A DNA stretch of 64,000 nt from an uncultured Chloroflexia bacterium. GTDB taxonomy: Bacteria; Chloroflexota; Anaerolineae; JAAYZQ01. The stretch lies in NCBI GenBank assembly GCA_963701775.1, contig CAVPBH010000020.1:221527-285526 (forward strand). The letters run 5' to 3'. This document shows, in pieces, positions 13,564 to 42,344 of the stretch. Positions within the stretch are counted from its first letter, which is position 1; each line of letters starts with the position of its first letter. Under the pieces are notes generated by a model that saw only the letters and a program-made list of their open reading frames with translations, did no database searches and had not been told where the DNA came from. Both the position numbers and the translations under genes were made by a program.

Positions 13564-13566
13564 GGC

Positions 13567-21282: not shown

Positions 21283-21285
21283 CTC

Positions 21286-21693
21286 TCACCCCACGCTTTC
21301 CAAGACGATTGCGCCCGGCGGACACATCGGCGCACACTCGGGCCGGCCGCCGCACAGGTCACACTTGAGTGCGACGCCCAACTCCTCGTCGACCCAGATG
21401 GAGTCATAGGGGCAGGCGGCCGCGCAGTCGCCGCAGCCCGCGCATATCCCGGTATCGACCAGCCATGCCCCGGTGCTCAGGTCCAAGGTGATGGCGCCCG
21501 TCGGGCAGGCGGCCGCGCAGGGCGCGTCGTCGCATTGGCGGCAGATGATAGGCGTGAACGGCCCTTCGTCGCGCGGAGCTGCGATGGCCACGCGCGAGCG
21601 CCGCAGCCAGACGGCCTGCTCGTGGTGAAAAGAGCAAAAGTTCTGGCAGATGCGGCAGCCGGTACACTTTTCAGCGTGAGTCTCGAGTCGCAC
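21286..21693 (-). CDS. 4Fe-4S dicluster ferredoxin-domain protein (likely AOR electron partner)
   Basis: Intact 135 aa with multiple CxxCxxCxxxCP motifs (CTGCRICQNFC, CRQCDDAPCAAACP, CAGCGDCAAACP, CDLCGGRPECAPMCP). Confidence 0.8.
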   Translation of the reverse strand: MRLETHAEKCTGCRICQNFCSFHHEQAVWLRRSRVAIAAPRDEGPFTPIICRQCDDAPCAAACPTGAITLDLSTGAWLVDTGICAGCGDCAAACPYDSIWVDEELGVALKCDLCGGRPECAPMCPPGAIVLESVG

Positions 21694-21701
21694 AGTCTCC
21701 C

Positions 21702-23588: not shown

Positions 23589-23594
23589 GGCCGG

Positions 23595-26522: not shown

Positions 26523-26547
26523 TCTCTTCCTTTCAGTCCTCTCCGGT

Positions 26548-29117: not shown

Positions 29118-29127
29118 TGGTCGCCCC

Positions 29128-30468
29128 CTAGAGCCCGATAACGCCTGGGTTCATGATGTTGTTGGGATCCAGCGCCCGCTTGAGGGTCTTGAGCATGCTC
29201 CAGTAGCCCGTGTCGCCGAGGTGTGCCTGCAGGTGAGGCGCCCACTGGCGGCCCTTGGTGTAGGGGCAGCCACCCATGGCAAGCGCGGCGTCCATCATCT
29301 CGGGCAGCGCCGCCTGGAGCCGGGCGTACGCCTCCTGGTCGCCTGGGTGATGGAAGAGAAGGCTGACGTGCTCGGAGCCGGTGGGCTCGGGGAACATCTG
29401 CTGCGAGAACTTGACAATTCCGTGCCGCTGCATGATCTCGCGCATGAGCAAGGTAGCGCTCTCCAGCTTGGAGAAAGGCAGGAAGAAGGTCACCGCAGCC
29501 GCAATGCCGTCCTTGAACTCTTCGCCGGTGTGGAACCAGCGATACGTCCAGAACTTTTGCGGGGCTTCGGGCCCCTCGCACCGAAAGGACGGGTAGCGGG
29601 CGACGATGGCCCGGATGCGCTCCACGCGATGGTCCACCTCGGCGGCATCTCCCTCGACATTCACATCGAACAGGAGCCAGTCCGGCTTGATAATTGGAAC
29701 CGAGATGAAGCACACCAAGTCGTGCTGTGCCAGCTCGCGAAAGATCTCAATGCCATCGTGCAGGCTGGTGCCTACGTAGCGCTCCAGGTAGACCTTCTCG
29801 GGAAGAGGGTACATGCGCAGCGTTACCTCGGTGATGACGCCGAATGCTCCCTCGGAACCGACGAAGAGCCCGGTCAGGTCAGGCCCCAGGGCATAGCGGA
29901 AGAAGGTGCTCGCTGCCGGATTGGCCCCGGTGCCGGTCGATACGATTTCACCCGAAGGCAGCACAGCCTTCAGCCCCAGTACCTGGTGGCCCTGGCTGAC
30001 GTACTTGATATTGCCCCAGCCAATCCCCGGCCTCGATACGTGCGCCCCCAGCGTACCGGCCATGGCGCCCGAGGGCGCGATGCCGATCTTCCAGCCCCGC
30101 TGCTCCAGCATATCCATCAGCTTCACGAAGGTCAGACCGGTCTGTGCGGTGACCGTGCCGGTGTCCTCGTCGATGTCCAGGAGTTTGTCCAGCCGGAGCG
30201 TTTCCAGGAGAATGCCCCCATCCGATTGGCAGCCGCCTTCCTGGGCCGAGCCTGCCGCCGCGCGGCGACACCGGGACGCCCAGCTCATTCGCCAGACGTA
30301 AGATGGCGGCGATTTCGTCGGCGCTGCCCGGTTTGACCGCGCAGAGAGGCCAGCGCGGCGGCTGCGTGCCAAAGTCCTGCGTATAGGCCATCAATATGAA
30401 CGGCTCGTCGGTAACATACTCCGGCCCGACAATGTCGCGCAGGCGAGCGAGTAGGTCTCGTCTATCCA
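29128..30468 (-). CDS. FAD-binding oxidase (GlcD-like) with one apparent frameshift near 30280
   Basis: N-terminal FAD_binding_4 in the frame of ORF 29948..30691 (MDRRDLLARLRDIVGPEYVTDEPFILMAYTQDFG...AVKPGSADEIAAILRLANELGVPVSPRGG). Remainder in the frame of ORF 29128..30372 (GSAQEGGCQSDGGILLETLRLDKLLDIDEDTG...). Confidence 0.65.
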
Positions 30469-31223
30469 TGGTCCGTACCCGGGAAGAGAATGCCGTGCAT
30501 CTCGCGCACCAGGCGCTGCGGGTTCTCGTCCTGCCACACGCGGCGGCCGATTGCGACGCCGCCCGCTCCGGCTGCCACCACGTCGCGTACCACCTGGAGT
30601 GTGTCGTCGCCTGATCCGCTGTTCTTGGGCCCGCCGGCGACGACGATCGGAATCGGACAGGTGGCCACCACATCGCGGAAGGCCGCGACATCGCCGCAGT
30701 AGTTGGTCTTGACGATGTCTGCGCCCATCTCGAAGCCGATGCGTGCCGCGTGGGCGATGGCTGCGGGCTGGTAGGCCTGATCCTGTGCGGGCATCATCTC
30801 GGCCAACACCGGAACGCCAAAACGCTGGCAGCGCTCGGCCAGGTTGCCGAGGAAGCGCATCGTCTCCACCTCGCCGCCGCGTCCGAAGAAGATGGACACA
30901 GCCACCGCGTCGGCATCCAGGCGCAGCGCCGTCTCGACGGTGGCTACGGGCGTCTCCTGGCGTGCTTCGGGCGCCAAGCCGAGGGTGATGCTGACCCGGA
31001 GCACCAGGCCCACCGGATCTGCGACCGGCTCGACCAGGCGTGCCATGCCGGGGGTCACGAGCAGGGCATTGGCGCCGCCCGCCACCACCTGCTGCACGAG
31101 CGAGTAGGGGCGGTCGATCCCCTTGATGGGCCCCAGCCAGGGTCCATGATCCAGGGGCACCATCAGGCAGCGTTGCTGCGATCCGCGGAATAGCCTCCGC
31201 ATTCTCCGATCTTTGCCTGTCAT
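30462..31223 (-). CDS. class I aldolase, DhnA/LsrF-like (fructose-bisphosphate aldolase class I / thiolase-like family)
   Basis: Intact 253 aa (RMRRLFRGSQQRCLMVPLDHGPWLGPIKG...DAVAVSIFFG...ADIVKTNYCGDV...). Confidence 0.7.
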   Translation of the reverse strand: MTGKDRRMRRLFRGSQQRCLMVPLDHGPWLGPIKGIDRPYSLVQQVVAGGANALLVTPGMARLVEPVADPVGLVLRVSITLGLAPEARQETPVATVETALRLDADAVAVSIFFGRGGEVETMRFLGNLAERCQRFGVPVLAEMMPAQDQAYQPAAIAHAARIGFEMGADIVKTNYCGDVAAFRDVVATCPIPIVVAGGPKNSGSGDDTLQVVRDVVAAGAGGVAIGRRVWQDENPQRLVREMHGILFPGTDHG

Positions 31224-31226: not shown

Positions 31227-32676
31227 TCACTCTCCTGCTTCTGCCAGAGCAAACTCACAGAAGGCCCGATAGGTATGATATCCGTCTTCATAGACTTTAG
31301 ATAATTCGTGATGTGGCTCGATTCGCTCCGGGCCGTCGAACGTACGCGATAGGCTCTCGGCAAAACTGCCCTGCCCCAAGTGCTGCTTGCAGAGCGCAAA
31401 GAGCACCCGGGTAACCGTCTCGCTGCCGGCATAGATGGAGACCGGGCGTTGGCAGACGTCTGCGATGATCTGCGGCCAGCCGGGTGTGGACGCGCCGCCG
31501 CCGGCGAGCGCAATCTCGTGCACTGCCACACCCATCTGGCCAAAGAGATCCAGGAAGACCCGCAGGCTGTAGGCGACACCCTCCATCACGGCGCGCAGCA
31601 CGTGCCGGGCATCGTGAGCGAGTTGCAGCCCGTAGAAGCCGGCCCGGAGCCTGTCGCTCCAGTAGGGGTTGCGCTCGCCCGCGAGGAAGGGAATGAAGCA
31701 TACCCCACCTGCCCCAGGCGCAACCTCGAGCGCTTCGGCTAGGCATGCATCAAAGGGCTTGCCTTGGCCCAGGAGCGCGTGGGCCCAGGTCAGGCTGCTG
31801 CCCGTCGTGGAAGATACGCCGCCCAACATTAGGTAGGGACCAAAGGGATAGATGTGCAGGCGGTGCTGAGGGTCGGGGTGCCGGTCGTTCTCGATTGGAA
31901 GGAACACCATGGAGGAGCTGCCCAGCGAGCACACAACCCGCCCAGGCTTCAGCGGCGCAGCACCAAACAATGCAGCAACGTCTCCCATGCCTACGACAAC
32001 TCTTGCGTCGGGCGGCAGGCCAAGTTGGCGTGCCACGTCGGGCAGGAGCCGGCCTCCGCCGCCGTCGCCGGGCCGGATGGGCGGCAGGACCGCGGCATCC
32101 AGGCCGGCCAGCGGCAACCGGTCGAGCGCGTAGCGGCGGCTGGACCAATCGAGGAGTGCGGCGCCGCCCGGCTCGGTCAGGTCGGTGCAGATCTCGCCGG
32201 TCATGCGATACCGCACATAGTCCTTGGGCCAGAGCAGGCTGCGCGTGCGGTCCAGCGCCTCGGGCCGGTGGCGGCGCAGCCAAACCAGCTTGGGCAGGGT
32301 GAAGGTGCTGTTCAGTTGGTAGGGTGGAAGGCGCAGGAGTGGCCTGCAACTCCTCTGTTTCGGCCGCGGCACGGCGGTCCAGCCAAAGGATGGTGGGCGG
32401 GATGACCTTGCCCTCCGCGTCGAGCAAGACCCCGGTGTGCATCTGCCCGGTAAAGGAAAGAGCCGCGACCTCGTGCAGATCGTGGCCGTCCCGCGCCAGG
32501 GCCGAGAGAGCCGTCTGCAGGGCCCGCCACCACTGCCCCGGGTCTTGCTCGGCCCAGCCGGGCTGCTCGGCGCTGTAACCATAGCGGGAAGTGGCGGCGC
32601 CTGTTACCCGCCCCTCGCCGCTGTACAGCACGGCTTTGAGCGACGACGTGCCGACGTCGATGGTCAAGATGCTCAC
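31227..32676 (-). CDS. FGGY-family carbohydrate kinase (xylulokinase/glycerol kinase-like) with one apparent frameshift near 32330
   Basis: N-terminus MSILTIDVGTSSLKAVLYS...QWWRAL in ORF 31750..32676. Remainder in ORF 31227..32582 (YQLNSTFTLPKLVWLRRHRPE...GSSSMVFLP...GGGASTPGWPQIIADV). Confidence 0.7.
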
Positions 32677-32686
32677 AGACGATCCC

Positions 32687-34171
32687 TCACGGCATCAGCC
32701 CCTTGTCCCGGTAGTAGCGCCGGGCATCGGCCAGGATGCGGTCCAGGTCATCCTCCTGGGCAGGAGTCAACGGCTGCACCTGGTGAGTGGCCAGGATGCG
32801 CTCCACCCGCGCGCGCGCATAGTCAATCGCCGTCTTCTTGTCCGCGGCCAGCCATTGGCCGTAGCTCAAGCGGTCGGCCGCACGGGGCATATACTGCTCC
32901 CTGCGAAACCACTTCAGGGTGTGTTCCGTGTCCAGGTAGTGGCCTGGGATGGGCCCCACCTTCTGGATCAGCTCCAGCGCAATCGTGTCGTCGTCTACCT
33001 GTTCGCCCGAGATAAAGCGGCCAATCATGCCTGCGATATCGTCGTCGAGCACGGCCTGCACCGGGTGTGCCGTCATCTCGGCGGCGACCCCAAAGTGCAA
33101 TAGCAGGTGGTTTGCACCTGAGAGGGCGGCGGCAAACCCCGCCATCGCCTTTTCGTAGCCGGCCTGGTAGTCGATGGTCTTGGCCGAGACGTAGCCCGGC
33201 GAACCGTTGCCACAGGGCACCTGATAGTGGCGCCACATCTGGTTCCAGATGGCATTATTGATCGAAGCTTCGATCTGGCCAAAGGCCGGCGCCCCGTTGC
33301 TCATGTTCATGGACAAAGCAAAGTGGCCGATGAGCATGCGGTGGCCTGGGCGCAGAAGCTGCGTGAGCACGATCATGGCCATGTGCTCGGCATTGCTGAC
33401 CACGACCGAGCCGGCCGCCGTCACCGGGCCGGTGCCCCCCATGATGCAGCCGTCGACCGTCAGGATCGGGAAGTCGGCCTCGACCATCCGGCGGGCGACC
33501 GATATCGCATCGCCGTTCCACATGAGCGGCGCGGACGAAGTGACGACGCCCGAGATCTCGACCCCAATCGCCTGGGCCATCTGTATGTTAAAGATCTCAC
33601 ACCCCTGCGTGTAGCAGACCGATTGGTGCTTGGTCGAGTGGCGCATGAGCAGGGCCACCCCCTCGGGCATGGCCATCACCGGCGGCACGCCTTCGAAGCC
33701 ATAGTAGGGATAGCAGCCCAGGCAGCTCAACGTCGGCAGCGCGTCCAGGACGCGGGCGCACTCGACGAACTCGGCCCGGGTGGGCGAGCGCGGCTCGTAG
33801 GTGTCCAGATCGATGGTCTGCATCCCCGAGGTGTGCGAGAAGTGCAAGGTGTTGCCGCCATACTCCAGGTCGTGGCGCGGGTCGCGCGCCCGAACACGGA
33901 AGGTGGGCGGCACACGGCGCAGGCACTCCTCGACCAGGGCAGGAGGGAAGCGGACGCGGTGCGCGTCGGCATCGACCCTACAGCCGTGGCCGGCCAGGAA
34001 CTCGAGTGCCCAGCCGGATTCCATGCGCACGCCGGTCTCGTCCAGGACCCGCAGTGTGGCCCTGTGGATGTCAGCCACCTGCTCGTCGGTGATGAACTCG
34101 ATGGGCTTGAGCCTTAGCGTAAAGCCGTCTTGGTTCACTCTGTGTTTCTCCACCAGCCACATGCGCCGCAC
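32687..34171 (-). CDS. MttB-family (trimethylamine methyltransferase superfamily) corrinoid-dependent methyltransferase, non-pyrrolysine type
   Basis: Intact 494 aa with no in-frame amber; MttB-like architecture (…FPILTVDGCIMGGTGPVTAAGSVVVSNAEHMAMIVLTQLLRPG…LSYGQWLAADKKTAIDYAR). Confidence 0.8.
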   Translation of the reverse strand: MRRMWLVEKHRVNQDGFTLRLKPIEFITDEQVADIHRATLRVLDETGVRMESGWALEFLAGHGCRVDADAHRVRFPPALVEECLRRVPPTFRVRARDPRHDLEYGGNTLHFSHTSGMQTIDLDTYEPRSPTRAEFVECARVLDALPTLSCLGCYPYYGFEGVPPVMAMPEGVALLMRHSTKHQSVCYTQGCEIFNIQMAQAIGVEISGVVTSSAPLMWNGDAISVARRMVEADFPILTVDGCIMGGTGPVTAAGSVVVSNAEHMAMIVLTQLLRPGHRMLIGHFALSMNMSNGAPAFGQIEASINNAIWNQMWRHYQVPCGNGSPGYVSAKTIDYQAGYEKAMAGFAAALSGANHLLLHFGVAAEMTAHPVQAVLDDDIAGMIGRFISGEQVDDDTIALELIQKVGPIPGHYLDTEHTLKWFRREQYMPRAADRLSYGQWLAADKKTAIDYARARVERILATHQVQPLTPAQEDDLDRILADARRYYRDKGLMP

Positions 34172-34221
34172 CCGTCAGGGCGGCCCGGAGCCCCCGGGCC
34201 GCCCCGGTCGTCGAGGCAGCC

Positions 34222-35610
34222 CTATGCCAAGGGCATGCCCGCCCGAATTGCCGTCTCTTGCACCTCATCGTAGATGCGCTGCCACTCGGCACTGGGCGTG
34301 AGCGTCTTGACGTCGTAGCACTCCGCAAAGCTCTGGCCCTTAGGGGCCTGCCCAAGCTGCGCCTCGTACAGGGGCAGCAGCCGGTTGGCCACATCATTGG
34401 CCTGGGCTCGGCTCATGCCGGCCGTCTTCTTGTACACCTCTCCGGCAAAGCGCACTTCCAGCGGCGTCAGGTAGTTGGAATACTTGCCGCCGGCGGAGCG
34501 CGTGCCGGTGCACGAGGTCGTGCCCGACACGCTCAGGTTCATCATGCCCACAGCCGACTCTAGGAGGAGCATCGGTGTGGCAGGCCCGGCCGTCTGGTTG
34601 AGGACCGAATTGACACACAGATGGGCATTGCGGCTCAGCGCCTGGAAGACGACACTCTGTGCCCAGAGGGCGTGCCGCCCGCAGTTGCCCATGTAGCGCA
34701 TGTCATACGGGAACGACGCGCCGTTGCTGGCCTGGTAGGCGTTGTAGAGCAAGATAGTGCAGGCAATGCACGACACCACGGCCCCCTCTGGACCGCCCGC
34801 ATAGCCGCCGATCATGGACCAGGAGCCGCCATATACCACTCCGTCGCAGTTAAACGCCTGCACCACCTTGTGCAGGCTCTCGTAGGAGGTCTTGAGCTCG
34901 ACGGGTGACAAGACCAGGACGATGTCACGCTCCGGCACATATCCGCCTGGGATGCCATAGCCGCCCAACACACCGTAGTGGGTGGGCGACGTGCCGACGG
35001 CATAGAGCCCCATGCCTTCCCGACCGGCACGACGCAGCGCCTCGTATGTGGCCTGTGCCTGCCACTTGCCTACCATCAACTCGTAGGGCGATCCGGCGCG
35101 TATGGTGGCGCCATAGATCGCCTCGACCGAAGGGCCCTCGATACAGTCCACTTCGGGCACGCGCGCGATGCCTTCCAGCACCGGGATGAAGAGCTCCTCG
35201 CTCATCGCAATGCTCAAGGGGCACACCCACACCGGCAGGGTCGGGTCGTCCAGGCCGCGGTGCTTGAAGTGAGCAATCTCTTTGCCTTCGCCCAGGGTGA
35301 ACTCGGCCGGTGCAGCAGCCAGGCCCTCCAGGAGCTCTTCGCGGGTGAACATGATGCGGCGCTGCGTGTCGATGCACAGCATCCCCGCCTCGATTGCCGT
35401 GTCCATGCCGGCCTGAAAGAAGCGGTCCACCAGGTCATCATCCTGGTTGATGGGGTTCTTGGGGTCACAGGTCCTGAGCAGGTTGTGCTTTTTCAGGTTG
35501 GCGGCGATGGTGCGTGGAATCACCTCGGTGTCCCACTGGAACGTCTCGCACACGGGGCCGGTGTGGGCCCTATCCAGAACACGCAGAAGTCTCTCGCGGT
35601 CGATGGTCAT
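34222..35610 (-). CDS. MtmB-family (monomethylamine methyltransferase-like) protein without in-frame amber codon
   Basis: Intact 462 aa; alignable to archaeal MtmB at N- and C-termini (…FQAGMDTAIEAGMLCIDTQRRIMFTREELLEGL… ; …GQSFAECYDVKTLTPSAEWQRIYDEVQETAIRAGMPLA, cf. MtmB …GKTFQECYDVKTVTPTEEYMQVYDG…). No TAG in frame. Confidence 0.75.
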   Translation of the reverse strand: MTIDRERLLRVLDRAHTGPVCETFQWDTEVIPRTIAANLKKHNLLRTCDPKNPINQDDDLVDRFFQAGMDTAIEAGMLCIDTQRRIMFTREELLEGLAAAPAEFTLGEGKEIAHFKHRGLDDPTLPVWVCPLSIAMSEELFIPVLEGIARVPEVDCIEGPSVEAIYGATIRAGSPYELMVGKWQAQATYEALRRAGREGMGLYAVGTSPTHYGVLGGYGIPGGYVPERDIVLVLSPVELKTSYESLHKVVQAFNCDGVVYGGSWSMIGGYAGGPEGAVVSCIACTILLYNAYQASNGASFPYDMRYMGNCGRHALWAQSVVFQALSRNAHLCVNSVLNQTAGPATPMLLLESAVGMMNLSVSGTTSCTGTRSAGGKYSNYLTPLEVRFAGEVYKKTAGMSRAQANDVANRLLPLYEAQLGQAPKGQSFAECYDVKTLTPSAEWQRIYDEVQETAIRAGMPLA

Positions 35611-35622
35611 GGCAATCTCTCC

Positions 35623-36303
35623 TTACATGATCACAGTGGGCACCGGCGGCTTTTGACCGGAGGTGACCAGTTGCTTGCAGAGGGCGGGAGCTTGAGCAGC
35701 GTTGGCGGCCCAGCCATCCGCGCCGATCTGGGCCGCGAATTCGGGTGTGACCGGCCCGCCGCCCACAATGACATAAAGACGGTCGCGCAGGCCCATTTCC
35801 TTGAGCAGGTCGATCACCTCCTTCTGGTAGGGAAGCGAGGCGGTCATCAAGCTGGAAAGCGCCAGGATGCTGGCGCGCTGGTCCCGGCCGGCCTTGACGA
35901 ACTCGAGGGGCGGGATGTTCACCCCCAAGTCGACGACTTCGTAGCCGCCGACGGCCAGCATGGTGGCCACCAGGTTCTTGCCGATGTCGTGCAAGTCACC
36001 CGAGACGGTGCCAATGACGACCTTGCCGCCCGACCCAGCTCCGGCTCCGCCCTTGATCTGTGGCTGGAGCAGTGCCATGCAGCGCTTCATCTTTTCGCCG
36101 GCGATCATCAGGTCGGGCAGATAGATCTCGAACCTGGAAAAGAGGTCGCCGATCTCGCCCATTGCATCGGAGGCGACTTCGATCGCCTTCATGGCGTCGC
36201 CGCCCTCGGCGATGTACTGCTCTGTCAGGCCGGTCACCTCGTCATATTCCGAGTCGCCGACCAATGCCGCGCGCAACTTTTCCAATAACTCCTGTGTGCT
36301 CAT
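35623..36303 (-). CDS. cobalamin-binding corrinoid protein (MtmC/MttC-like)
   Basis: Intact 226 aa; B12-binding DxHxxG motif (GTVSGDLHDIGKNLVATML) with N-terminal helical cap. Confidence 0.85.
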   Translation of the reverse strand: MSTQELLEKLRAALVGDSEYDEVTGLTEQYIAEGGDAMKAIEVASDAMGEIGDLFSRFEIYLPDLMIAGEKMKRCMALLQPQIKGGAGAGSGGKVVIGTVSGDLHDIGKNLVATMLAVGGYEVVDLGVNIPPLEFVKAGRDQRASILALSSLMTASLPYQKEVIDLLKEMGLRDRLYVIVGGGPVTPEFAAQIGADGWAANAAQAPALCKQLVTSGQKPPVPTVIM

Positions 36304-36365
36304 CGTTCTCCCTTCTGATCGTTTGTATCGGCCGCGGTCTACCGCGCCTTCTCTCCAAATGCCAG

Positions 36366-37793
36366 TCAGCCTCTGAGCTTGGCGCGCTCCGCCGCTGCCA
36401 GGATGCGATCTATCTCTCGATCCTGCTCTTCAGACAAGGGCGGAACGCGATGGCTGCGTACCGTTTCTCTGGCCCAGTCGCGGGCGCGCTCGACCATGGT
36501 TTGGTCGCCCTGGGCATGCCATGCCTCGTAGCCCTGCCGGTCTGCCAGGCGGGGCAGCATCTGTTCGCCGCGCCAAGACAGCTTGGTGTGTCGAGTGCCA
36601 AGGAAGTTGCCTGACGAGCCCATCTCCTGGATCAGGCCAACGGCCAGCGTCTCTTCCCTCACGTCAATTCCCTTCAGGATGCGGCCGACCATGGCGTTGA
36701 TCTCGCAATCGATCACGAGCTGGACGGGCGACCACGCCTTTTCGGTCTCCAGTCCGCCGCCATTTGTGATCAGGTTGGCCCCCGCTTGCGCCAGGAGCAG
36801 CGCGCCCATCGCCTTTTCGATGGCCGCCTGCTCGTCGTGCGCCTTAGCGTCGGTCAAAGGCAATTGCGGGTGGGTAGGAATGCCATAGTGGCGGCCGAGC
36901 TGCGCCGTCGCGGCGCCCAGCAGGCCGACCTCGACCGCACCGACGGAGAGCAAGCCTTGGCGCATGTCCAGGAGGTGGGGATAGCTGGAAAGCGTCACCG
37001 GCGCTCCTGGCTGGACAAGCTGCGCCCATACGACGCCGGCCAGGTGTTCGGCCGCCTGCAGCACCAGCGCGCCGGCGAGGGTCACCGGGCTGTTTGCGCC
37101 CAGGGTAGGAGCGGGCAGGATGCAGATCGGATGGCCAGCCCGTACAAAGTGCGCTGCGCCGTCCAGTTGGTCGGCGGGATAGCGTAGGGGTGTCACCGGG
37201 TTGATTTGGCCGTAGATGTGCTGCCCGGTGACGGCGGCCATCTCGACGACCCATGGGGCGCACCCGTCAAAGACCCCGCCGGCTGTGGCTTTCTGGGTAT
37301 TGCGCAGCACCTCCGCCGTGATCCACTCGATCATGACAGGCGAGGGCTTGTCGGAGATGGTTCCGGTCGGCATGATGGGCAGGTGAATCTCGTCAAGGGC
37401 GTCCAACAGGCGCACCATGGGGCCGATGTCGGCCAGGCACGCCGGGCGCCGCTGCCCGGTCTCCAGGTCCACCAGGAAGAGGCCTGGGTGCGACTGGACG
37501 TAGAGCCGCCCTGGCCCGACTTCGAGATCCGACTCCCGGCTGCGCGCCCGGAGAGTAAAGCCGCGCGGGCACAGAGCGACGCATTCCTCCACCAAGTGCT
37601 CGGGGATACGTACGCGGCCACAGGCGGGCTCGACGCTGCAGCCGGCGTGCGCCAGGAGCCGGAGTGCCTCGTCGCTGCCGAAGACGACGCCGGTCCCGGA
37701 TAGGACCTCAAGAGCGGAGCGGTGAACGCGCTCTACTTCTCCGGTCGTGAGCATGTCCCTGGGACTCGGGCATGCATATCCCTTCAGGGACAT
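36366..37793 (-). CDS. MttB-family corrinoid-dependent methyltransferase, non-pyrrolysine type (second copy)
   Basis: Intact 475 aa, no in-frame amber; paralog of 32687-34171. Confidence 0.8.
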   Translation of the reverse strand: MSLKGYACPSPRDMLTTGEVERVHRSALEVLSGTGVVFGSDEALRLLAHAGCSVEPACGRVRIPEHLVEECVALCPRGFTLRARSRESDLEVGPGRLYVQSHPGLFLVDLETGQRRPACLADIGPMVRLLDALDEIHLPIMPTGTISDKPSPVMIEWITAEVLRNTQKATAGGVFDGCAPWVVEMAAVTGQHIYGQINPVTPLRYPADQLDGAAHFVRAGHPICILPAPTLGANSPVTLAGALVLQAAEHLAGVVWAQLVQPGAPVTLSSYPHLLDMRQGLLSVGAVEVGLLGAATAQLGRHYGIPTHPQLPLTDAKAHDEQAAIEKAMGALLLAQAGANLITNGGGLETEKAWSPVQLVIDCEINAMVGRILKGIDVREETLAVGLIQEMGSSGNFLGTRHTKLSWRGEQMLPRLADRQGYEAWHAQGDQTMVERARDWARETVRSHRVPPLSEEQDREIDRILAAAERAKLRG

Positions 37794-37884: not shown

Positions 37885-37982
37885 GCGAGGCAAATGATAT
37901 AATCACTTGCCATACAGAATATATCATATCGAGAGCAGATTGTCAAGTGATACTTGACAGCGGTCCGGACTTGTGATATACT
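37885..37982 (+). promoter_or_regulatory. divergent regulatory region: TATAAT box, 19-bp perfect palindrome TGTCAAGTGATACTTGACA overlapping a TTGACA-N17-TATACT promoter for gntR
   Basis: Palindrome at 37941-37959; TTGACA at 37954-37959, 17-bp spacer, TATACT at 37977-37982. Upstream GATATAATCA palindrome; motif TTATATCATTTG present twice in opposite orientation (about 37890 and 37995). Confidence 0.5.
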
Positions 37983-38055
37983 CTTTTCCGTAGTTGGTTA
38001 TATCATTTGGGCATCGACCGCAAGGGCCGGATCGCGCGCGCGTCAGGAGTCACCG

Positions 38056-38826
38056 ATGACATCCGAGATGGCCGAACGCACTGAACTGGATCGTGGTGCC
38101 GAAATCCCGCTGTACCGGCGGATCGAAAAGGATTTGCTGACACAAATCGTCGAGGGCAGGCTCGAGCCTGGTCAGGCAATTCCGGCAGAGCGCGAGCTGT
38201 GCGACCTGTATGGCGTCAGCCGGATCACGGTGCGGCACGCCATCCGCGAGCTGGAAACCTCGGGCTACATACAGCGGCGCCAGGGAAAGGGCACGTTCGT
38301 CAGCCGCTCGCGCATCCGGCGCGAGATGGGCCGCTTGATCAGCTTCTCCGAGGAGCTCCGCCTGCAGGGGCGCGTGCCAGGCTCACGCCTTCTGAACCTC
38401 CAACACCGCCCGTCTGATGCTGCCACTTCCGCCCTACTCCGCATCCAGGAAGGTGAGCCGATGTGGATCGTGGAGCGGCTGCGCCTGGTCGACGGCGAGA
38501 TCGCCTCGCTGAGCATCTCCTATCTGCATCTTCCTCCCGAGGTCTATCTGACCCCTATGGAGCTCACGAACCAGCCTTCCCTTTGGGCCCTGCTCGAAGA
38601 GAAAGGGATCGTCATCTGTGAAGGCGACACTCTAGTACGTGCGATTGCCGCCGATGGTCACAATGCCCGCCTGTTGGGGGTGGCGGAAGGAGACCCGCTC
38701 TTGCTGCGCGAGGGTGTCAACTACGCCATGGGGGAAGCCCTGCAGGCGGTGGAGGCCTTTCAGACCATTAGCCGTGCCGATAGATACCACTACTCTCTGC
38801 ACCTCATCCGGCAAGGGTGCCCATAG
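38056..38826 (+). CDS. GntR family transcriptional regulator, HutC subfamily (UTRA effector domain)
   Basis: N-terminal wHTH (IPLYRRIEKDLLTQIVEGRLEPGQAIPAERELCDLYGVSRITVRHAIRELETSGYIQRRQGKGTFV). UTRA-like C-terminal domain. ATG at 38056. Confidence 0.85.
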   Translation: MTSEMAERTELDRGAEIPLYRRIEKDLLTQIVEGRLEPGQAIPAERELCDLYGVSRITVRHAIRELETSGYIQRRQGKGTFVSRSRIRREMGRLISFSEELRLQGRVPGSRLLNLQHRPSDAATSALLRIQEGEPMWIVERLRLVDGEIASLSISYLHLPPEVYLTPMELTNQPSLWALLEEKGIVICEGDTLVRAIAADGHNARLLGVAEGDPLLLREGVNYAMGEALQAVEAFQTISRADRYHYSLHLIRQGCP

Positions 38827-38971
38827 GGGAGCAAGGTGCCACGTAGGGCAAGCCTCGAAGCTTGCCTCGAATGCACAGCAGAAAGGAGGGAGAAGAGAAG
38901 GATAAGAACTGCCTGATGTGGGATGTCGAAGGGTAGGTCAAATGCTAGGAATCCAACGAGGAGGAAAGACA

Positions 38972-40366
38972 ATGTTGGTCAAGCGAGTTGTGTTTGCGAT
39001 TCTGTGTGTGGTAATGCTGGCGGCGTGCGGCGCCCAGCCCACCGCCGAGACTGTGATCCAGACAGTGAAAGAGACCGTCGAAGTGCCGGTGGAGCAGACG
39101 GTCGTGGTGCCGGTGGAGCAGACGGTCGTGGTGCCGGTAGAGCAGACGGTGATCGTGCCGGAAAACAAGCTTCAACTCTCCTTCGCCGGTCACGAGTACT
39201 TCAACTTGTCCTTCGGCCCGGCCGATCCGCCCCTGGTGACCATGCGGAAGGTAGCCGAGGCAAATTTCCCCGGCACCGAAATCCAGCTCATCATGCAGCC
39301 ACTGGATGGCAACAAGTATCACGACAACCTCGCCACTTACTTTGTGGCCAAAGACGCAACGGTGGACCTGATGTACGCCGCCGGCTACTGGATGACCGAG
39401 TTTGGCGCGGCCGGGTGGCTCGTGCCGCTCCAGGACAAGCTGGACCCCGCAGTGCTGGCCAAGTACGACCAGGCGTCACTCGACACCTTCAGCTACAAGG
39501 GTGACCTGCTGGGCATCGGCCCCGTGTGGGGCGGCATCGGTGGCCTCTACTACCGCAAGGACCTGCTCGATGCAGCCGGCCTGGCAGCACCGGCGACCTA
39601 CGATGACCTCATCGCCGCCTGCGATACGATTCTCCCCAACAACCCGGGCATGGGCTGCTGGGATTGGCCGGCCATGCGCAACCTCGTGCTGGTCAACCGC
39701 TGGTCGGAGTACCTGTACGGCTTTGGCGGCCAGTACAAGAACGAGTCTGACAAGTGTGCTATGAATTCGGCGGAAGGCGTGGCCGCCCTGGAGTTCATGA
39801 TTGGCCTGTTCGAGAACGGCTACACACCTCAAGAGGCGCTGTCGTGGAAAGAGGAAGACTCCAGCATCCGCTTCATCAGCGGCCAGACCCTCTTTGTTTC
39901 TGCGCGCCAGGACCTGCTGAACTACATCGACGACCCGACCAAGTCGCAGGTCGCCGGCAAGTGGGGCTTTATCCCCAACCCTGCCCAGCCGGGTGGCCGG
40001 CCCTCCGGCTTCACCGAGTTCTGGGCCTTTGCGATCTCTGCATCCTCGGACAACATCGACGAGGCGGTCAAAGTGCTGAACGTCTGGGCAGATACGGCGA
40101 CCATGGTGCCCTTCAACCTGGCCTGGGGCCCAATCCAGGGCAATGCCGAGGTCTACCAGGACGCCACAGTGCTCGCGGGCAACAAGTTCTTGCCCCTCGT
40201 CCAGGAGATCGCCAAGACGGCATTGGCGCCGCTGCCCAGCGCCAACTACGGCGAAGTAGTAGATGTCCTGCAGGCTGAGCTCCACTCGGCACTGTCGGGG
40301 AGCAAGACGGCGCAGCAGGCGCTGGACGATGCCTGTGCAGCCATCGATGTGATCGACGCGGAGTAG
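38972..40366 (+). CDS. ABC transporter substrate-binding lipoprotein (CUT1 family) with repetitive linker
   Basis: GAGGAGGA Shine-Dalgarno; signal peptide with lipobox (VVMLAACGAQP); family-1 solute-binding fold; intact. Confidence 0.85.
   Translation: MLVKRVVFAILCVVMLAACGAQPTAETVIQTVKETVEVPVEQTVVVPVEQTVVVPVEQTVIVPENKLQLSFAGHEYFNLSFGPADPPLVTMRKVAEANFPGTEIQLIMQPLDGNKYHDNLATYFVAKDATVDLMYAAGYWMTEFGAAGWLVPLQDKLDPAVLAKYDQASLDTFSYKGDLLGIGPVWGGIGGLYYRKDLLDAAGLAAPATYDDLIAACDTILPNNPGMGCWDWPAMRNLVLVNRWSEYLYGFGGQYKNESDKCAMNSAEGVAALEFMIGLFENGYTPQEALSWKEEDSSIRFISGQTLFVSARQDLLNYIDDPTKSQVAGKWGFIPNPAQPGGRPSGFTEFWAFAISASSDNIDEAVKVLNVWADTATMVPFNLAWGPIQGNAEVYQDATVLAGNKFLPLVQEIAKTALAPLPSANYGEVVDVLQAELHSALSGSKTAQQALDDACAAIDVIDAE
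39083..39154 (+). repeat. 3 x 24-bp tandem repeat encoding VPVEQTV(V/I) in the SBP linker
   Basis: gtgccggtggagcagacggtcgtg repeated three times with minor changes, in frame within the SBP gene. Confidence 0.7.
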
Positions 40367-40463
40367 CCGCGCATCACCCGTCGGCCTTTGAGTGAGCATC
40401 CGCGTCCCCGGGCTTGATCCGGGGACGCGGACCTTGCCCAAGGGAGGGCTCGAAGTGCCGGTC

Positions 40464-42331: not shown

Positions 42332-42344
42332 GGAGGAAATCCGC

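What the first reader, a model, noticed from the sequence alone, without database searches (positions are those of the whole stretch)
32687..37793. MtmB-family homolog lacking the amber (pyrrolysine) codon, embedded between two non-Pyl MttB-family genes and a corrinoid protein
Archaeal monomethylamine methyltransferase MtmB requires an in-frame UAG-encoded pyrrolysine. The 462-aa homolog here (34222-35610) aligns end to end with MtmB, including the C-terminal ECYDVKT(L/V)TP block, but has no in-frame TAG. Non-Pyl MttB relatives are known to act on quaternary amines. The substrate and chemistry of non-Pyl MtmB relatives are much less defined. The three methyltransferases plus one B12-binding protein form a compact module at the upstream (5') end of the island and may define a new substrate specificity.
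Basis: partly seen in the sequence, partly recalled or inferred. Interest (0 to 1): 0.6.

Follow-up and report, generated by a model that had tools for sequence, protein, structure and literature searches.

The report
Pyrrolysine-free MtmB-like demethylase operon
An uncultured Chloroflexota-type bacterium carries an intact, well-conserved relative of the archaeal methylamine methyltransferase MtmB with tyrosine where pyrrolysine normally sits. Its gene neighbours suggest it removes methyl groups from methylated nucleobase-like compounds rather than from methylamine, which would be a new job for this enzyme family.

Summary
Window 34222-35610 (-) encodes a 462-aa protein that matches Pfam MtmB end to end (E 2.7e-78). 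An AlphaFold model superposes on M. barkeri MtmB (TM 0.91). Tyr203 (TAT) occupies the Pyl-202 position in an ungapped motif. The gene lies between two non-Pyl MttB homologues, which carry Leu313 and Tyr327 at the Pyl position, and next to a DxHxxG corrinoid protein.

Across 22 Chloroflexota loci the constant unit is corrinoid protein plus MtmB-like, not the three-methyltransferase module. The MttB genes come and go. A methyl-THF-type second methyltransferase (MT2) sits upstream in five loci but is missing from this window.

The pair sits in a roughly 22-kb operon with a sugar-type ABC importer, adenosine/guanine-type aminohydrolases, a sugar kinase, an aldolase and aldehyde oxidoreductases. 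In relatives the neighbours are nucleoside-type transporters, xanthine-dehydrogenase-like enzymes and NdmA/NdmB-like methylxanthine N-demethylases. In one locus such an oxygenase stands where the corrinoid pair would be.

Best reading: a corrinoid-dependent demethylase for N-methylated purine-type compounds. This rests on gene context only. Non-Pyl MtmBs were already known, and one (MtqB) was characterised in 2026. I rate this a new variant of a known kind, interest about 0.6.

The parts
34222..35610 (-). Non-Pyl MtmB-family methyltransferase, 462 aa (proposed substrate:corrinoid MT1). Tyr203 (TAT, 35002-35004) sits at the Pyl-202 position. Its stop codon is TAG.
   Evidence: Pfam PF05369 E 2.7e-78. 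PDB MtmB E 5.6e-54 with ungapped Pyl motif. AF2 pLDDT 95.4, Foldseek TM 0.91 to 1tv2/1l2q/1nth. Codon and stop. 93 synonymous vs 11 non-synonymous differences from L049.
35623..36303 (-). Cognate corrinoid protein (MtxC type), 226 aa, with DLHDIG (DxHxxG) at residue 103.
   Evidence: Pfam B12-binding and B12-binding_2. NCBIfam MtgC/MtbC-like, below cutoffs. Motif. Directly upstream of the MtmB homologue in 39 of 44 loci, and in 21 of 22 of the Tyr/Phe clade by BLAST (L013's copy falls under the coverage filter; ORF clustering finds one in all 22).
36366..37793 (-). Non-Pyl MttB-family methyltransferase 1, 475 aa. Leu313 (TTG, 36855-36857) sits at the MttB Pyl-334 position.
   Evidence: Pfam PF06253 E 5.3e-87. 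TIGR02369 336 bits, below the 525 cutoff. PDB 7xcl/9yce alignments. Codon.
36755..36857 (-). Rfam PYLIS_3-like stretch inside MttB1, starting exactly at the Leu313 codon. Read as coding-sequence homology, not a working insertion element.
   Evidence: RF02510, 38.9 bits against a gathering score of 38. The model's UAG aligns to UUG.
32687..34171 (-). Non-Pyl MttB-family methyltransferase 2, 494-aa ORF (the true start may lie a few codons in). Tyr327 (TAC, 33191-33193) sits at the Pyl-equivalent position.
   Evidence: Pfam PF06253 E 7.9e-80. PDB 2qne alignment. Codon. The L049 orthologue is called at 483 aa.
34172..34221 (-). 50-nt spacer with a 13-bp G+C-rich hairpin. Relatives carry a second corrinoid-protein gene at this spot.
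   Evidence: Sequence. RNA fold -42.1 kcal/mol, z -2.65. Second MtxC present in L001, L002, L008-L010 and L013, absent in L049.
37918..37982 (.). Divergent promoter-like region. The -35/-10 pair for the methyltransferase operon lies at 37946..37918 (-), and the pair for the regulator at 37954..37982 (+). The palindrome TGTCAAGT-N3-ACTTGACA (37941-37959) overlaps both -35 boxes and is a candidate GntR operator.
   Evidence: Two sites with 11 of 12 consensus matches, against 0.3 expected. Inverted repeats. Function is inferred.
37954..38826 (+). GntR/UTRA (HutC-type) regulator, divergent from the operon. The true start is probably downstream of the listed TTG.
   Evidence: Pfam GntR and UTRA, with the domain beginning at residue 53. 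A GntR/UTRA gene neighbours the cluster in 16 of 44 loci.
38918..43448 (+). Sugar-type (CUT1) ABC importer: binding protein, two permeases and a MalK-type ATPase.
   Evidence: Pfam. The binding protein is closest to maltose/trehalose-binding proteins 6dtq (E 1.8e-36) and 1eu8. Conserved beside the cluster in 10 loci.
43507..44955 (+). Aminohydrolase 2 of the MTA/SAH/5'-deoxyadenosine/guanine-deaminase type.
   Evidence: Pfam Amidohydro_1. NCBIfam best hits 5'-deoxyadenosine deaminase and TRZ/ATZ hydrolase, all below cutoff.
31227..32679 (-). FGGY sugar kinase (xylulokinase-like), split by a 1-nt insertion near 32342.
   Evidence: Pfam and NCBIfam. tblastn shows two frames. The L049 orthologue is an intact 482 aa, and the insertion is located.
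30462..31223 (-). DhnA-type class I aldolase (DeoC/LacD family).
   Evidence: Pfam PF01791. NF005556 242.8 bits against a cutoff of 241.
27996..30372 (-). FAD-linked oxidase (GlcD-like) plus a CCG/4Fe-4S protein (GlcF/LdhH-like): a hydroxy-acid or alcohol dehydrogenase pair.
   Evidence: Conserved order in 12 loci.
24595..27999 (-). Aminohydrolase 1 (adenosine/guanine-deaminase type), a Zn alcohol dehydrogenase, and a homologue of formylmethanofuran:H4MPT formyltransferase (FTR-like).
   Evidence: The triplet keeps its order in L003, L009, L010, L012, L017 and L044-L047.
15368..24569 (-). Downstream part of the operon: aldo-keto reductase, tungsten-type aldehyde:ferredoxin oxidoreductase x2 with ferredoxin and a ThiS-like protein, SsnA-like aminohydrolase (17706-19064), frameshifted PreA/PydA-like DHO_dh+4Fe-4S gene (16609-17719), and an ArgE/DapE/YgeY-like M20 hydrolase (15368-16675).
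   Evidence: The block aminohydrolase-PreA-AOR lies directly upstream of MtxC-MtmB in L028 and L031, and next to it in L016 and L021.

Best explanation
The 462-aa protein is the substrate-specific first methyltransferase (MT1) of a corrinoid-dependent demethylation system that does not use pyrrolysine.

Proposed sequence of events:
1. The enzyme binds a methylated substrate in the MtmB-type TIM barrel, where Tyr203 lines the site that Pyl-202 occupies in MtmB.
2. The Co(I) form of the adjacent corrinoid protein (35623-36303) takes the methyl group.
3. Methyl-Co(III) is unloaded onto tetrahydrofolate by an MT2 encoded elsewhere in this genome. In related loci that MT2 (Pterin_bind or URO-D type) lies beside the pair.
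4. A RamA-type activase, also encoded elsewhere, re-reduces the corrinoid when it is oxidised.

The substrate is most likely not methylamine but an N-methylated purine-type nucleobase or nucleoside, for example a methylxanthine or a methylated adenine or guanine derivative. There the nitrogen that loses the methyl belongs to an electron-poor or cationic heterocycle, which is already a good leaving group, so pyrrolysine would not be needed. The demethylated product would then pass to the deaminases, the sugar kinase and aldolase, and the aldehyde and hydroxy-acid oxidoreductases of the same 22-kb operon. The two flanking MttB-like enzymes would remove other methyl groups from the same or related substrates.

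Shown here: family and fold, absence of Pyl, Tyr at the Pyl position, the conserved pairing with the corrinoid protein, purifying selection, and the gene context.
Inferred: every catalytic step and the substrate class.
Rough sub-probabilities: functional corrinoid MT1, 0.9; substrate other than free methylamine, 0.8; N-methylated nucleobase or nucleoside, about 0.45.
For: Family and fold.

Cognate corrinoid protein with DxHxxG lies directly upstream here and in 39 of 44 loci. MT2 is adjacent in relatives: Pterin_bind in L003, L011, L012, L017 and L019, with its best NCBIfam match a methyl-THF:corrinoid methyltransferase domain, and URO-D type in L025 and L026.

Purifying selection: 93 synonymous vs 11 non-synonymous codon differences.

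The residue at the Pyl column is specific to each subfamily, as expected for a specificity-determining position. It is Tyr or Phe in the clade at 61% identity or more, Asp, Glu, His or Gly at 50-58% (one Phe exception), and highly variable among more than 120 more distant full-length clusters.

Context pointing to nucleobases or nucleosides:
- 35 of 44 MtmB-homologue loci carry at least one nucleobase-catabolism-type neighbour.
- Three aminohydrolases in the island are closest to MTA/SAH/5'-deoxyadenosine/guanine deaminases and SsnA.
- Bmp-type, nucleoside-family ABC transporters flank the cluster in L046-L048 and 10 other loci.
- A three-subunit xanthine-dehydrogenase-like enzyme lies immediately upstream of MtxC-MtmB in L015, L021, L023, L024 and L048.
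- In five Acidimicrobiia loci, Rieske oxygenases precede MtxC-MtmB, usually with a deaminase between them. The one tested against PDB (L033) matches methylxanthine N-demethylases NdmB and NdmA best (E 2.6e-51 and 1.5e-49, full length).
- In L045 the conserved kinase-aldolase-aminohydrolase-ADH-FTR cluster carries such an NdmA/B-like oxygenase (E 1e-33) and no MtxC-MtmB pair. This looks like a non-orthologous swap of the demethylase step.

Literature:
- Non-Pyl MtmB can be a real MT1 with a non-methylamine substrate (MtqB, PMC13044021).
- Anaerobic transfer of caffeine N-methyl carbon to methane occurs in sediments with no enzyme assigned, and Anaerolineae were enriched (bioRxiv 10.64898/2026.01.06.697959).
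- SsnA and PydA-type enzymes belong to anaerobic purine degradation (bioRxiv 10.1101/2025.05.19.654654).
Against: - No biochemical data exist. The substrate class rests wholly on gene neighbourhood.
- No nucleoside hydrolase or phosphorylase, and no xanthine-dehydrogenase large subunit, is present in this window.
- Here the importer is a maltose/trehalose-like CUT1 system, not a Bmp type.
- The strictly conserved kinase, aldolase, FAD oxidase, CCG protein, ADH and FTR-like genes are not explained in detail by a nucleobase substrate.
- All NCBIfam matches of the aminohydrolases, SsnA-like and YgeY-like proteins are below the curated cutoffs.
- My first mapping of the Hecatella locus to the 2,8-dioxopurine pathway was partly wrong: its PLP enzymes are CysK and ThrC.
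- MT2 and RamA are absent from the 64-kb window.
- All characterised non-Pyl relatives (MtqB, and MtgB, MtcB, MtpB, MtyB in the MttB family) use aliphatic quaternary amines (PMC13044021).
Confidence: 0.45

Rival explanations
1. It demethylates a small aliphatic N-methyl compound: a quaternary amine as MtqB does (choline, tetramethylammonium, a betaine), or sarcosine or creatinine-derived N-methyl compounds. The nucleobase-type neighbours would then reflect a separate or downstream pathway.
For: The only characterised non-Pyl MtmB (MtqB) uses tetramethylammonium and choline, and every characterised non-Pyl MttB uses quaternary amines (PMC13044021). Two MttB-like genes flank it. Hydantoinase-, carbamoyltransferase- and M20-type neighbours and a GcvH gene at 14001-14486 could also fit a route from creatinine through methylhydantoin and sarcosine to glycine.
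Against: The window holds no choline, betaine or carnitine transporter (BCCT or ProU type). The importers found are sugar type here and nucleoside type in relatives. The co-occurring Rieske demethylases resemble NdmA/B (E 1e-49 to 1e-51), not the betaine or stachydrine enzymes (Stc2, 3vca, E 6e-4). Xanthine-dehydrogenase-like genes directly upstream in five loci are left unexplained.
Confidence: 0.2
2. It removes an O- or S-methyl group from a sugar or nucleoside, for example 2'-O-methyl ribonucleosides, methylated sugars or cyclitols, or 5'-methylthioadenosine/methylthioribose. This would free the carbohydrate for the kinase and aldolase steps.
For: A maltose/trehalose-like binding protein. 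A xylulokinase-like FGGY kinase and a DhnA-type aldolase lie directly downstream of the methyltransferase genes here and are conserved in 16-17 loci. The aminohydrolases are closest to MTA/SAH/5'-deoxyadenosine deaminases. L025 has a GH4 glycosidase, a PfkB kinase and a GlmS/GlmD-type SIS protein nearby.
Against: Known corrinoid O- and S-demethylases belong to other MT1 families, not MtmB (established knowledge; not tested here). The demethylases that co-occur with or replace the pair are N-demethylase-like. MtmB relatives at 50-55% identity sit in loci with no sugar genes at all.
Confidence: 0.15
3. It is a true monomethylamine:corrinoid methyltransferase that works without pyrrolysine. Its methylamine would be released inside the cell by the TRZ/ATZ-type aminohydrolases from methylamino-substituted heterocycles.
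For: Databases annotate it as 'monomethylamine:corrinoid methyltransferase'. TRZ/ATZ-family hydrolases can release alkylamines (established knowledge). MtqB shows a small amount of methylamine demethylation (PMC13044021).
Against: Pyl is regarded as essential for activating methylamine in MtmB (Hao et al. 2002, as cited in PMC13044021). No NCBIfam equivalog model matches. Identity to MtmB is only 28-29%. The Pyl column varies between close subfamilies, which does not fit a single fixed small substrate.
Confidence: 0.07
4. It is a decaying or non-catalytic remnant of a Pyl enzyme.
For: Two other genes of the island are frameshifted in this window. MT2, the activase and the second corrinoid gene are missing locally.
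Against: The ORF is intact and full length. There are 93 synonymous against 11 non-synonymous differences from a relative. 43 columns are invariant across 68 homologues down to 50% identity. The AF2 model is confident. The close relative L049 has the kinase intact.
Confidence: 0.03

Closest known systems
MtmB, monomethylamine:corrinoid methyltransferase of Methanosarcina barkeri (PDB 1NTH/1L2Q; Pfam PF05369)
   Same: Same Pfam family and same TIM-barrel fold (TM 0.91, rmsd 2.0 A). Collinear from end to end, with the conserved R-P/E-G-M-G motif around the catalytic position and the C-terminal ECYDVKT block. Encoded next to a DxHxxG corrinoid protein.
   Different: 28-29% identity. Tyr203 (TAT) stands in place of UAG-encoded Pyl-202. 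No tRNA-Pyl or pyl genes lie in the window, and TAG is an ordinary stop here, including for this gene. It is bacterial (Chloroflexota), and the likely acceptor is THF rather than coenzyme M. It sits in a heterotrophic catabolic operon rather than a methanogenesis locus.
MtqB of Methanococcoides methylutens Q3c, the first characterised non-Pyl MtmB homologue (tetramethylammonium/choline:corrinoid methyltransferase; PMC13044021, 2026)
   Same: A non-Pyl member of the MtmB superfamily, paired with its own corrinoid protein. It sets the precedent that such proteins are active MT1 enzymes with non-methylamine substrates.
   Different: MtqB is archaeal, feeds coenzyme M, and lies in a methanogen methylamine context. 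The present clade lies with sugar and nucleoside importers, deaminases, xanthine-dehydrogenase-like and Ndm-like genes. I could not obtain the MtqB sequence, so relatedness within the superfamily is untested.
Non-Pyl MttB family (COG5598): MtgB (PDB 2QNE/9YCE), MtcB, MtpB, MtyB
   Same: The same logic applies: a Pyl enzyme family whose non-Pyl members use a substrate that is already a good methyl donor. The two flanking genes belong to this family (E 1e-49 to 1e-55 against MtgB), and MttB1 has Leu at the Pyl position as MtgB does.
   Different: This is a different TIM-barrel family from the MtmB-like protein (TM about 0.5). The flanking genes score below the Pyl-MttB equivalog cutoff, and their substrates are unknown.
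NdmA/NdmB Rieske methylxanthine N-demethylases of Pseudomonas putida CBB5 (PDB 6ICK/6ICL)
   Same: A proposed functional analogue: removal of N-methyl groups from purines ahead of xanthine-dehydrogenase-type catabolism. Homologues of NdmA/B sit next to, or in place of, the MtxC-MtmB pair in related loci.
   Different: Unrelated fold and chemistry. Ndm is an O2-dependent oxidative demethylation that releases formaldehyde. The MtmB-like system would be an O2-independent methyl transfer to cobalamin and THF.

Membership tests
MtmB superfamily (Pfam PF05369) | Full-length match to the family profile above the gathering score | tested here: met
   264 bits against a cutoff of 25, E 2.7e-78, profile positions 6-445 of 450.
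MtmB superfamily (Pfam PF05369) | MtmB-type TIM-barrel fold | tested here: met
   AF2 pLDDT 95.4. Foldseek top hits are 1tv2, 1l2q and 1nth (TM 0.91, rmsd 2.0 A). The next family reaches TM about 0.5.
Pyl-dependent monomethylamine methyltransferase MtmB (EC 2.1.1.248) | In-frame UAG encoding pyrrolysine at the position of Pyl-202 | tested here: not met
   Codon 203 is TAT (Tyr). There is no in-frame TAG.
Pyl-dependent monomethylamine methyltransferase MtmB (EC 2.1.1.248) | Pyl-decoding machinery (pylT, pylS, pylBCD) in the genome | tested here: inconclusive
   No tRNA gene in the 64-kb window. No Pfam-annotated pyl-like gene among the ORFs scanned. 14 of 46 genes, including this one, end in TAG. 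The rest of the genome is not available.
Pyl-dependent monomethylamine methyltransferase MtmB (EC 2.1.1.248) | Methylamine-dependent methylation of the corrinoid protein | not testable with these tools
   Needs an enzyme assay. No NCBIfam equivalog model matches the protein.
MtqB clade (non-Pyl MtmB, tetramethylammonium/choline) | Groups with ACT9XH_RS04775 in a phylogeny and shares its predicted Met/Cys/aromatic binding residues | not tested
   The MtqB sequence could not be retrieved. The gene context differs (against PMC13044021).
Three-component corrinoid methyltransferase system (MT1 / corrinoid protein / MT2, plus activase) | Adjacent cognate corrinoid protein with B12-binding domains and the DxHxxG motif | tested here: met
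   35623-36303, with DLHDIG at residue 103. Adjacent in 39 of 44 loci.
Three-component corrinoid methyltransferase system (MT1 / corrinoid protein / MT2, plus activase) | Methylcorrinoid:THF (Pterin_bind) or URO-D-type MT2 encoded with the system | tested here: inconclusive
   None in this window (tblastn; Pfam). Present immediately upstream of MtxC-MtmB in L003, L011, L012, L017 and L019, and as URO-D type in L025 and L026.
Three-component corrinoid methyltransferase system (MT1 / corrinoid protein / MT2, plus activase) | RamA-type reductive activase | tested here: inconclusive
   No Pfam-annotated ORF in the window shows an activase domain. The rest of the genome is unavailable.
Non-Pyl MttB family (COG5598), for the two flanking genes | PF06253 match, no in-frame TAG, and a standard residue at the MttB Pyl-334 position | tested here: met
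   E 5e-87 and 8e-80. Leu313 (TTG) and Tyr327 (TAC). No in-frame TAG.
Anaerobic reductive purine (2,8-dioxopurine) pathway enzymes SsnA, YgeY, PydA/UacX | Scores above the curated NCBIfam cutoffs for SsnA and YgeY | tested here: not met
   SsnA models: 236 bits against a cutoff of 444. YgeY: 173 against 321. These proteins resemble the pathway enzymes only. The PreA-like gene is frameshifted.

The most novel reading that the evidence does not exclude
This MtmB subfamily (Tyr/Phe type in Chloroflexota, with Asp/Glu/His/Gly-type sisters in Acidimicrobiia, 'Thermotogae'-labelled MAGs, Hadarchaeota and Ca. Hecatella) would be the first corrinoid-dependent N-methylpurine or nucleobase demethylase. 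It would be an oxygen-independent counterpart of the Ndm Rieske demethylases. It would let heterotrophs strip methyl groups from methylxanthines or from methylated bases and nucleosides released from RNA and DNA, pass the methyl to THF, and then degrade the ring. On this reading the residue at the old pyrrolysine position tunes which methylated position or base is accepted.
Probability: 0.35. Interest if true: 0.8.

Novelty: new variant of a known kind. Interest (0 to 1): 0.62.

Why it matters
Non-Pyl MtmB homologues are numerous: 871 clusters at 50% identity, and more than 120 full-length subfamilies among the best 150. Only one has an assigned function so far (PMC13044021).

If this clade acts on methylated nucleobases, three things follow. 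The chemistry of the MtmB and MttB superfamilies would extend beyond aliphatic amines. The anaerobic N-demethylation of caffeine-like compounds seen in sediments would gain an enzyme candidate. And a route would appear by which the methyl groups of modified nucleic-acid bases enter one-carbon metabolism in widespread soil, groundwater and sediment Chloroflexota.

The analysis also yields a clean test set for how these enzymes manage without pyrrolysine: an MT1 and corrinoid-protein pair, a defined position (Tyr203), and natural variants with Asp, Glu, His or Gly at that position.

Tried and rejected
1. A different TIM-barrel family, or a deletion at the Pyl site. Rejected.
2. A hidden Pyl system. 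There is no tRNA, and TAG is a common stop, including for this gene. The Rfam PYLIS_3 hit in MttB1 is barely above threshold. It begins exactly at the homologous Leu codon and aligns through conserved coding sequence, so I read it as homology and not as a working element.
3. MT2 or an activase in the window. None found.
4. Placing the protein relative to MtqB. The paper and its supplements hold no sequence, and cluster look-ups of the ten representative clusters I picked (the five nearest Pyl-MtmB plus five others) returned no organism names that could identify MtqB. Left untested.
5. Reading the Ca. Hecatella locus as a complete 2,8-dioxopurine (YgeX/YgeW/...) cluster. Partly rejected. Its PLP enzymes are CysK and ThrC. 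PreA, dihydropyrimidinase and carbamate kinase pass their cutoffs, so it is a pyrimidine-type reductive set plus an XdhA-like enzyme.
6. Candidate substrates considered and not supported by specific evidence: mycosporine-like amino acids, methylated inositols or rhizopine, ergothioneine or hercynine, betaine lipids, arsenosugars, pterins, riboflavin or roseoflavin.
7. Literature searches linking corrinoid methyltransferases to methylated nucleosides or methylxanthines found nothing. Nor did a search for monomethylamine methyltransferase in Anaerolineae.
8. A search for further conserved unknown genes in the 22 Tyr-clade loci. Most extra clusters looked like antisense shadow ORFs of the known genes (not individually checked); the real extra genes (XDH-like subunits, Opp-type ABC) surfaced only on closer inspection.

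Full report
OBSERVATION

The minus strand of the window carries four consecutive ORFs at exactly the stated coordinates:
- 36366-37793, 475 aa
- 35623-36303, 226 aa
- 34222-35610, 462 aa
- 32687-34171, 494 aa

Pfam assigns them to MTTB (E 5.3e-87), B12-binding plus B12-binding_2, MtmB (E 2.7e-78, covering profile positions 6-445 of 450) and MTTB (E 7.9e-80). None contains an in-frame TAG.

Against the M. barkeri MtmB1 crystal-structure sequence, the 462-aa protein aligns over residues 12-452 on 13-449 (E 5.6e-54). The segment around pyrrolysine is ungapped: 'GRPGMGV-Pyl-GPETS' against 'GREGMGL-Y-AVGTS'. Tyr203, codon TAT at 35002-35004, therefore stands at the Pyl-202 position.

An AlphaFold2 model built on 68 homologues is confident (pLDDT 95.4, pTM 0.95). 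Its best PDB matches are the three MtmB entries (TM 0.91, rmsd 2.0 A, 28% identity). The next family, MttB/MtgB, reaches only TM about 0.5.

The flanking MttB homologues carry Leu313 (TTG) and Tyr327 (TAC) at the position of MttB Pyl-334. The small protein has the DxHxxG cobalamin-ligand motif (DLHDIG at residue 103) and resembles MtgC and MtbC corrinoid proteins, below their equivalog cutoffs.

The gene is not decaying. Compared with a relative that is 98% identical in protein (L049), it shows 93 synonymous and 11 non-synonymous codon differences.

NO SIGN OF PYRROLYSINE DECODING

The window has no tRNA gene. TAG ends 14 of 46 confident genes, including the MtmB-like gene itself.

Rfam reports one hit, PYLIS_3 ('pyrrolysine insertion sequence mttB'), at 36755-36857 (-), scoring 38.9 bits against a gathering score of 38. 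It starts exactly at the Leu313 codon of MttB1, with UUG aligned to the model's UAG, and runs through the conserved coding sequence. I read this as coding homology between non-Pyl and Pyl mttB genes, not as a functional element.

THE FAMILY

Close homologues are plentiful: 336 hits in the word-indexed search, the best at 98% identity. Where they carry an organism name they come from Chloroflexi or Anaerolineae MAGs.

A scan of one genome per species found 36 loci:
- Those at 66-80% identity are nearly all from Chloroflexota: Anaerolineae, Anaerolineales, Caldilineales and 'Chloroflexia'-labelled MAGs. The exception is a 2-kb fragment from a 'Thermotogae'-labelled MAG at 76%.
- Most at 45-55% come from Acidimicrobiia, 'Thermotogae'-labelled MAGs, Hadarchaeota and Ca. 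Hecatella; a few are other Chloroflexota.

An exhaustive HMMER search of 1.84 billion cluster representatives found 871 clusters at 50% identity (E <= 1e-3), 185 of them at E <= 1e-30. Most of the best 150 are uninterrupted proteins of 450-470 aa, that is, non-Pyl.

The residue aligned to Pyl is characteristic of each subfamily. It is Tyr (58 sequences) or Phe (7, all but one of them at 64% identity or more) in the clade at 61% identity or more to the window protein, Asp, Glu, His or Gly (once Ser) in the 50-58% sisters, and almost any residue among more distant clusters. The flanking R-P/E-G-M motif stays.

The window protein is 29% identical to M. barkeri MtmB.

[quoted passage not shown] The first function, MtqB for tetramethylammonium and choline in Methanococcoides, was published in March 2026 (PMC13044021; see also PMC9768040).

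THE NEIGHBOURHOOD

In the window the four genes head a roughly 22-kb, tightly spaced minus-strand operon. In order it reads:
- MttB1, corrinoid protein, MtmB-like, MttB2
- FGGY kinase (xylulokinase-like)
- DhnA-type class I aldolase
- GlcD-like FAD oxidase and a CCG/Fe-S protein
- aminohydrolase
- Zn alcohol dehydrogenase
- a homologue of formylmethanofuran:H4MPT formyltransferase (FTR-like)
- aldo-keto reductase
- two aldehyde:ferredoxin oxidoreductases with a ferredoxin and a ThiS-like protein
- an SsnA-like aminohydrolase
- a PreA/PydA-like flavoprotein
- an ArgE/DapE/YgeY-like M20 hydrolase

Divergently transcribed are a GntR/UTRA regulator, a CUT1 sugar-type ABC importer and a second aminohydrolase. 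Near-consensus promoter-like sites flank a palindrome between the two transcription units.

Comparing 44 loci that carry an MtmB homologue shows what is constant:
- The corrinoid protein lies directly upstream in 39 of 44 by BLAST (21 of 22 in the Tyr/Phe clade, where ORF clustering finds one in all 22).
- FGGY (17), aldolase (16), ADH (14), FAD oxidase and CCG protein (12 each) and GntR (16) are common.
- MttB2 occurs in 12 loci, usually preceded by its own second corrinoid gene. This lineage lacks that gene and has a 50-nt hairpin-forming spacer instead.
- MttB1 occurs in only 4.

A Pterin_bind protein, whose best match is the methyl-THF:corrinoid methyltransferase domain, lies immediately upstream of the pair in five loci. 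URO-D-type methyltransferases lie nearby in two. None is present in this window, and no activase was seen. Those parts must be encoded elsewhere.

CLUES TO THE SUBSTRATE

- The three aminohydrolases are closest to MTA/SAH, 5'-deoxyadenosine, guanine and 8-oxoguanine deaminases and to SsnA, by NCBIfam (below cutoffs) and by PDB (4dyk, 4gbd, 4f0r).
- The binding protein of the importer is closest to maltose/trehalose-binding proteins. In related loci with the same kinase-aldolase-oxidase-aminohydrolase-ADH-FTR cluster, the importers are Bmp-type, the nucleoside-binding family.
- In one genome (GCA_034435335.1) a single GntR/UTRA gene sits between two operons. One is Bmp-ABC, a three-subunit xanthine-dehydrogenase-like enzyme, corrinoid protein and MtmB-like. 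The other is the long catabolic operon ending in an MttB gene.
- A xanthine-dehydrogenase-like enzyme lies immediately upstream of the pair in five Tyr-clade loci.
- In five Acidimicrobiia loci the order is Bmp-ABC, Rieske oxygenase, aminohydrolase, corrinoid protein, MtmB-like, xanthine-dehydrogenase-like. The Rieske protein's best PDB matches, over its full length, are the methylxanthine N-demethylases NdmB (E 2.6e-51) and NdmA (E 1.5e-49). One locus has three such paralogues.
- In L045 the conserved catabolic cluster carries an NdmA/B-like oxygenase (E 1e-33) and no corrinoid-MtmB pair, and its FAD oxidase and CCG pair is replaced by an NAD-type dehydrogenase. This looks like an aerobic version of the same pathway, with the demethylase step swapped.

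Overall, 35 of 44 loci have at least one nucleobase-catabolism-type neighbour.

SsnA and PydA-type enzymes are components of the recently described anaerobic purine pathway (bioRxiv 10.1101/2025.05.19.654654; 10.1101/2025.04.24.650524). A 2026 preprint shows anaerobic transfer of caffeine N-methyl carbon to methane in sediment, with no enzyme assigned and with Anaerolineae enriched (10.64898/2026.01.06.697959).

MECHANISM PROPOSED

Shown: the protein is an intact, selected, pyrrolysine-free member of the MtmB fold, and it is always paired with a corrinoid protein.

Inferred from the established three-component scheme (PMC13044021): it transfers a methyl group from its substrate to Co(I) of that protein. 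The methyl group then goes to THF through an MT2 of the kind found beside the pair in relatives, and an activase restores Co(I).

Inferred from context: the substrate is an N-methylated purine-type base or nucleoside.

Chemical rationale (my inference): Pyl is thought to turn methylamine into a quaternary-like adduct. In a methylated purine the nitrogen is part of an electron-poor or cationic ring and is already a good leaving group. That parallels the 'substrate mimics the Pyl adduct' idea proposed for non-Pyl MttB and MtqB.

The demethylated product would be deaminated by the aminohydrolases. Its carbon skeleton, with or without a sugar part, would be processed by the kinase, the aldolase, and the aldehyde and hydroxy-acid oxidoreductases.

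I give 0.9 to 'functional MT1', 0.8 to 'not free methylamine', and about 0.45 to the nucleobase or nucleoside class.

WEAK POINTS AND RIVALS

Everything about the substrate is guilt by association.
- This window has no nucleoside-cleaving enzyme and no xanthine-dehydrogenase large subunit, only an XdhC-like gene at 9322-10257.
- The kinase, aldolase, oxidase, ADH and FTR-like core is not explained in detail.
- All equivalog cutoffs for the purine-pathway look-alikes are missed.
- I had to retract part of an early reading of the Hecatella locus.

The rivals are:
- a small aliphatic N-methyl or quaternary amine substrate, as for MtqB (0.2);
- an O- or S-methyl sugar or nucleoside (0.15);
- methylamine itself without Pyl (0.07);
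- a non-functional remnant (0.03).

COMPARISON WITH WHAT IS KNOWN, AND NOVELTY

Membership of the MtmB superfamily is met on sequence and fold. Membership of the Pyl-dependent methylamine methyltransferases fails on the defining UAG/Pyl feature. Membership of the MtqB clade could not be tested because I could not obtain its sequence.

The existence of non-Pyl MtmB homologues is already known. What appears new is a defined Chloroflexota subfamily with Tyr or Phe at the Pyl position, its invariable corrinoid partner, and a context that points to methylated nucleobase-type substrates with Ndm-like oxygenases as co-occurring or replacing enzymes. I found no paper making this link.

I therefore class it as a new variant of a known kind, interest about 0.6. 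That would rise to about 0.8 if the corrinoid-dependent purine N-demethylase reading is confirmed.

Noticed in passing
window 31227-32679 (-), near 32342; window 16609-17719 (-), near 17219-17229: Two genes of the island are split by frameshifts. In the FGGY kinase the N-terminal ~115 aa are in another frame, caused by a 1-nt insertion relative to L049, where the gene is an intact 482 aa. The PreA/PydA-like DHO_dh+4Fe-4S gene is split as well. These are either assembly indels or recent pseudogenes.
   Followed up: partly
window 36755-36857 (-): The only Rfam hit in the window is PYLIS_3 (mttB pyrrolysine insertion sequence), 38.9 bits against a gathering score of 38. It starts exactly at the codon (TTG, Leu313) of the non-Pyl MttB1 gene that is homologous to the amber codon.
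   Followed up: yes
window 35002-35004, 36855-36857, 33191-33193: The codons at the Pyl-equivalent positions of all three methyltransferase genes (TAT, TTG, TAC) are each one nucleotide away from TAG. Within the MtmB clade the alternatives Phe, His and Asp are each one step from TAY. This is compatible with evolutionary traffic between amber and sense codons at this site, in either direction.
   Followed up: no
window 34172-34221 (-): The 50-nt spacer between the MtmB-like gene and MttB2 folds into a 13-bp perfect G+C hairpin (-42.1 kcal/mol, z -2.65) with no T tract after it. Relatives have a second corrinoid-protein gene at this spot. The close relative L049 also lacks that gene.
   Followed up: partly
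window 24595-25467 (-); loci L003, L009, L010, L012, L017, L044-L047: A homologue of formylmethanofuran:H4MPT formyltransferase (Ftr/FhcD, 155 bits, below the 297 cutoff) is strictly conserved after an aminohydrolase and a Zn-ADH in Anaerolineae clusters that show no other methanofuran or H4MPT genes. Its role is unknown. Formyl transfer from a ring-opened (formamido) heterocycle is one idea.
   Followed up: partly
window 16609-23588 (-); L016, L021, L028, L031: A block of tungsten-type aldehyde:ferredoxin oxidoreductase, PreA/PydA-like flavoprotein and SsnA-like aminohydrolase recurs next to the corrinoid-MtmB pair in different phyla. In some loci it sits where others have a xanthine-dehydrogenase-like enzyme. 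An AOR-family enzyme acting on an N-heterocycle rather than on an aldehyde is conceivable.
   Followed up: no
loci L032, L033, L037, L039, L042 (Acidimicrobiia) and L045: NdmA/NdmB-like Rieske oxygenases (up to three paralogues in L042) are encoded together with the corrinoid-MtmB pair. O2-dependent and cobalamin-dependent demethylases therefore coexist in one cluster. In L045 the oxygenase is present without the pair.
   Followed up: partly
window 37918-37982: Back-to-back near-consensus sigma-70-like promoters (11 of 12 matches each) lie in the divergent region. The perfect palindrome TGTCAAGT-N3-ACTTGACA spans both -35 boxes and is a likely operator of the GntR/UTRA regulator. The listed TTG start of the regulator ORF (37954) coincides with the promoter, so the real start is further downstream.
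   Followed up: partly
window 7985-14486 (-): Upstream of the island there is a radical-SAM/SPASM protein with a MazE-like N-terminus (7985-9271), an XdhC-type molybdenum-cofactor chaperone (9322-10257) with no xanthine-dehydrogenase gene in the window, DsbD-like and thioredoxin-like proteins, two DGC-domain proteins and a GcvH homologue (14001-14486).
   Followed up: no
locus L006/L007/L035 (Ca. Hecatella orcuttiae): Two tandem MtmB homologues (Gly at the Pyl position) lie between a cysteine synthase (CysK, above cutoff) and a threonine-synthase-like gene. Next to them are PreT/PreA, dihydropyrimidinase, carbamate kinase, carbamoyltransferases, an XdhA-like enzyme and a Bmp-type ABC importer.
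   Followed up: partly
window 60001-64000: G+C falls to 0.575-0.60, against about 0.65 elsewhere. Not examined.
   Followed up: no
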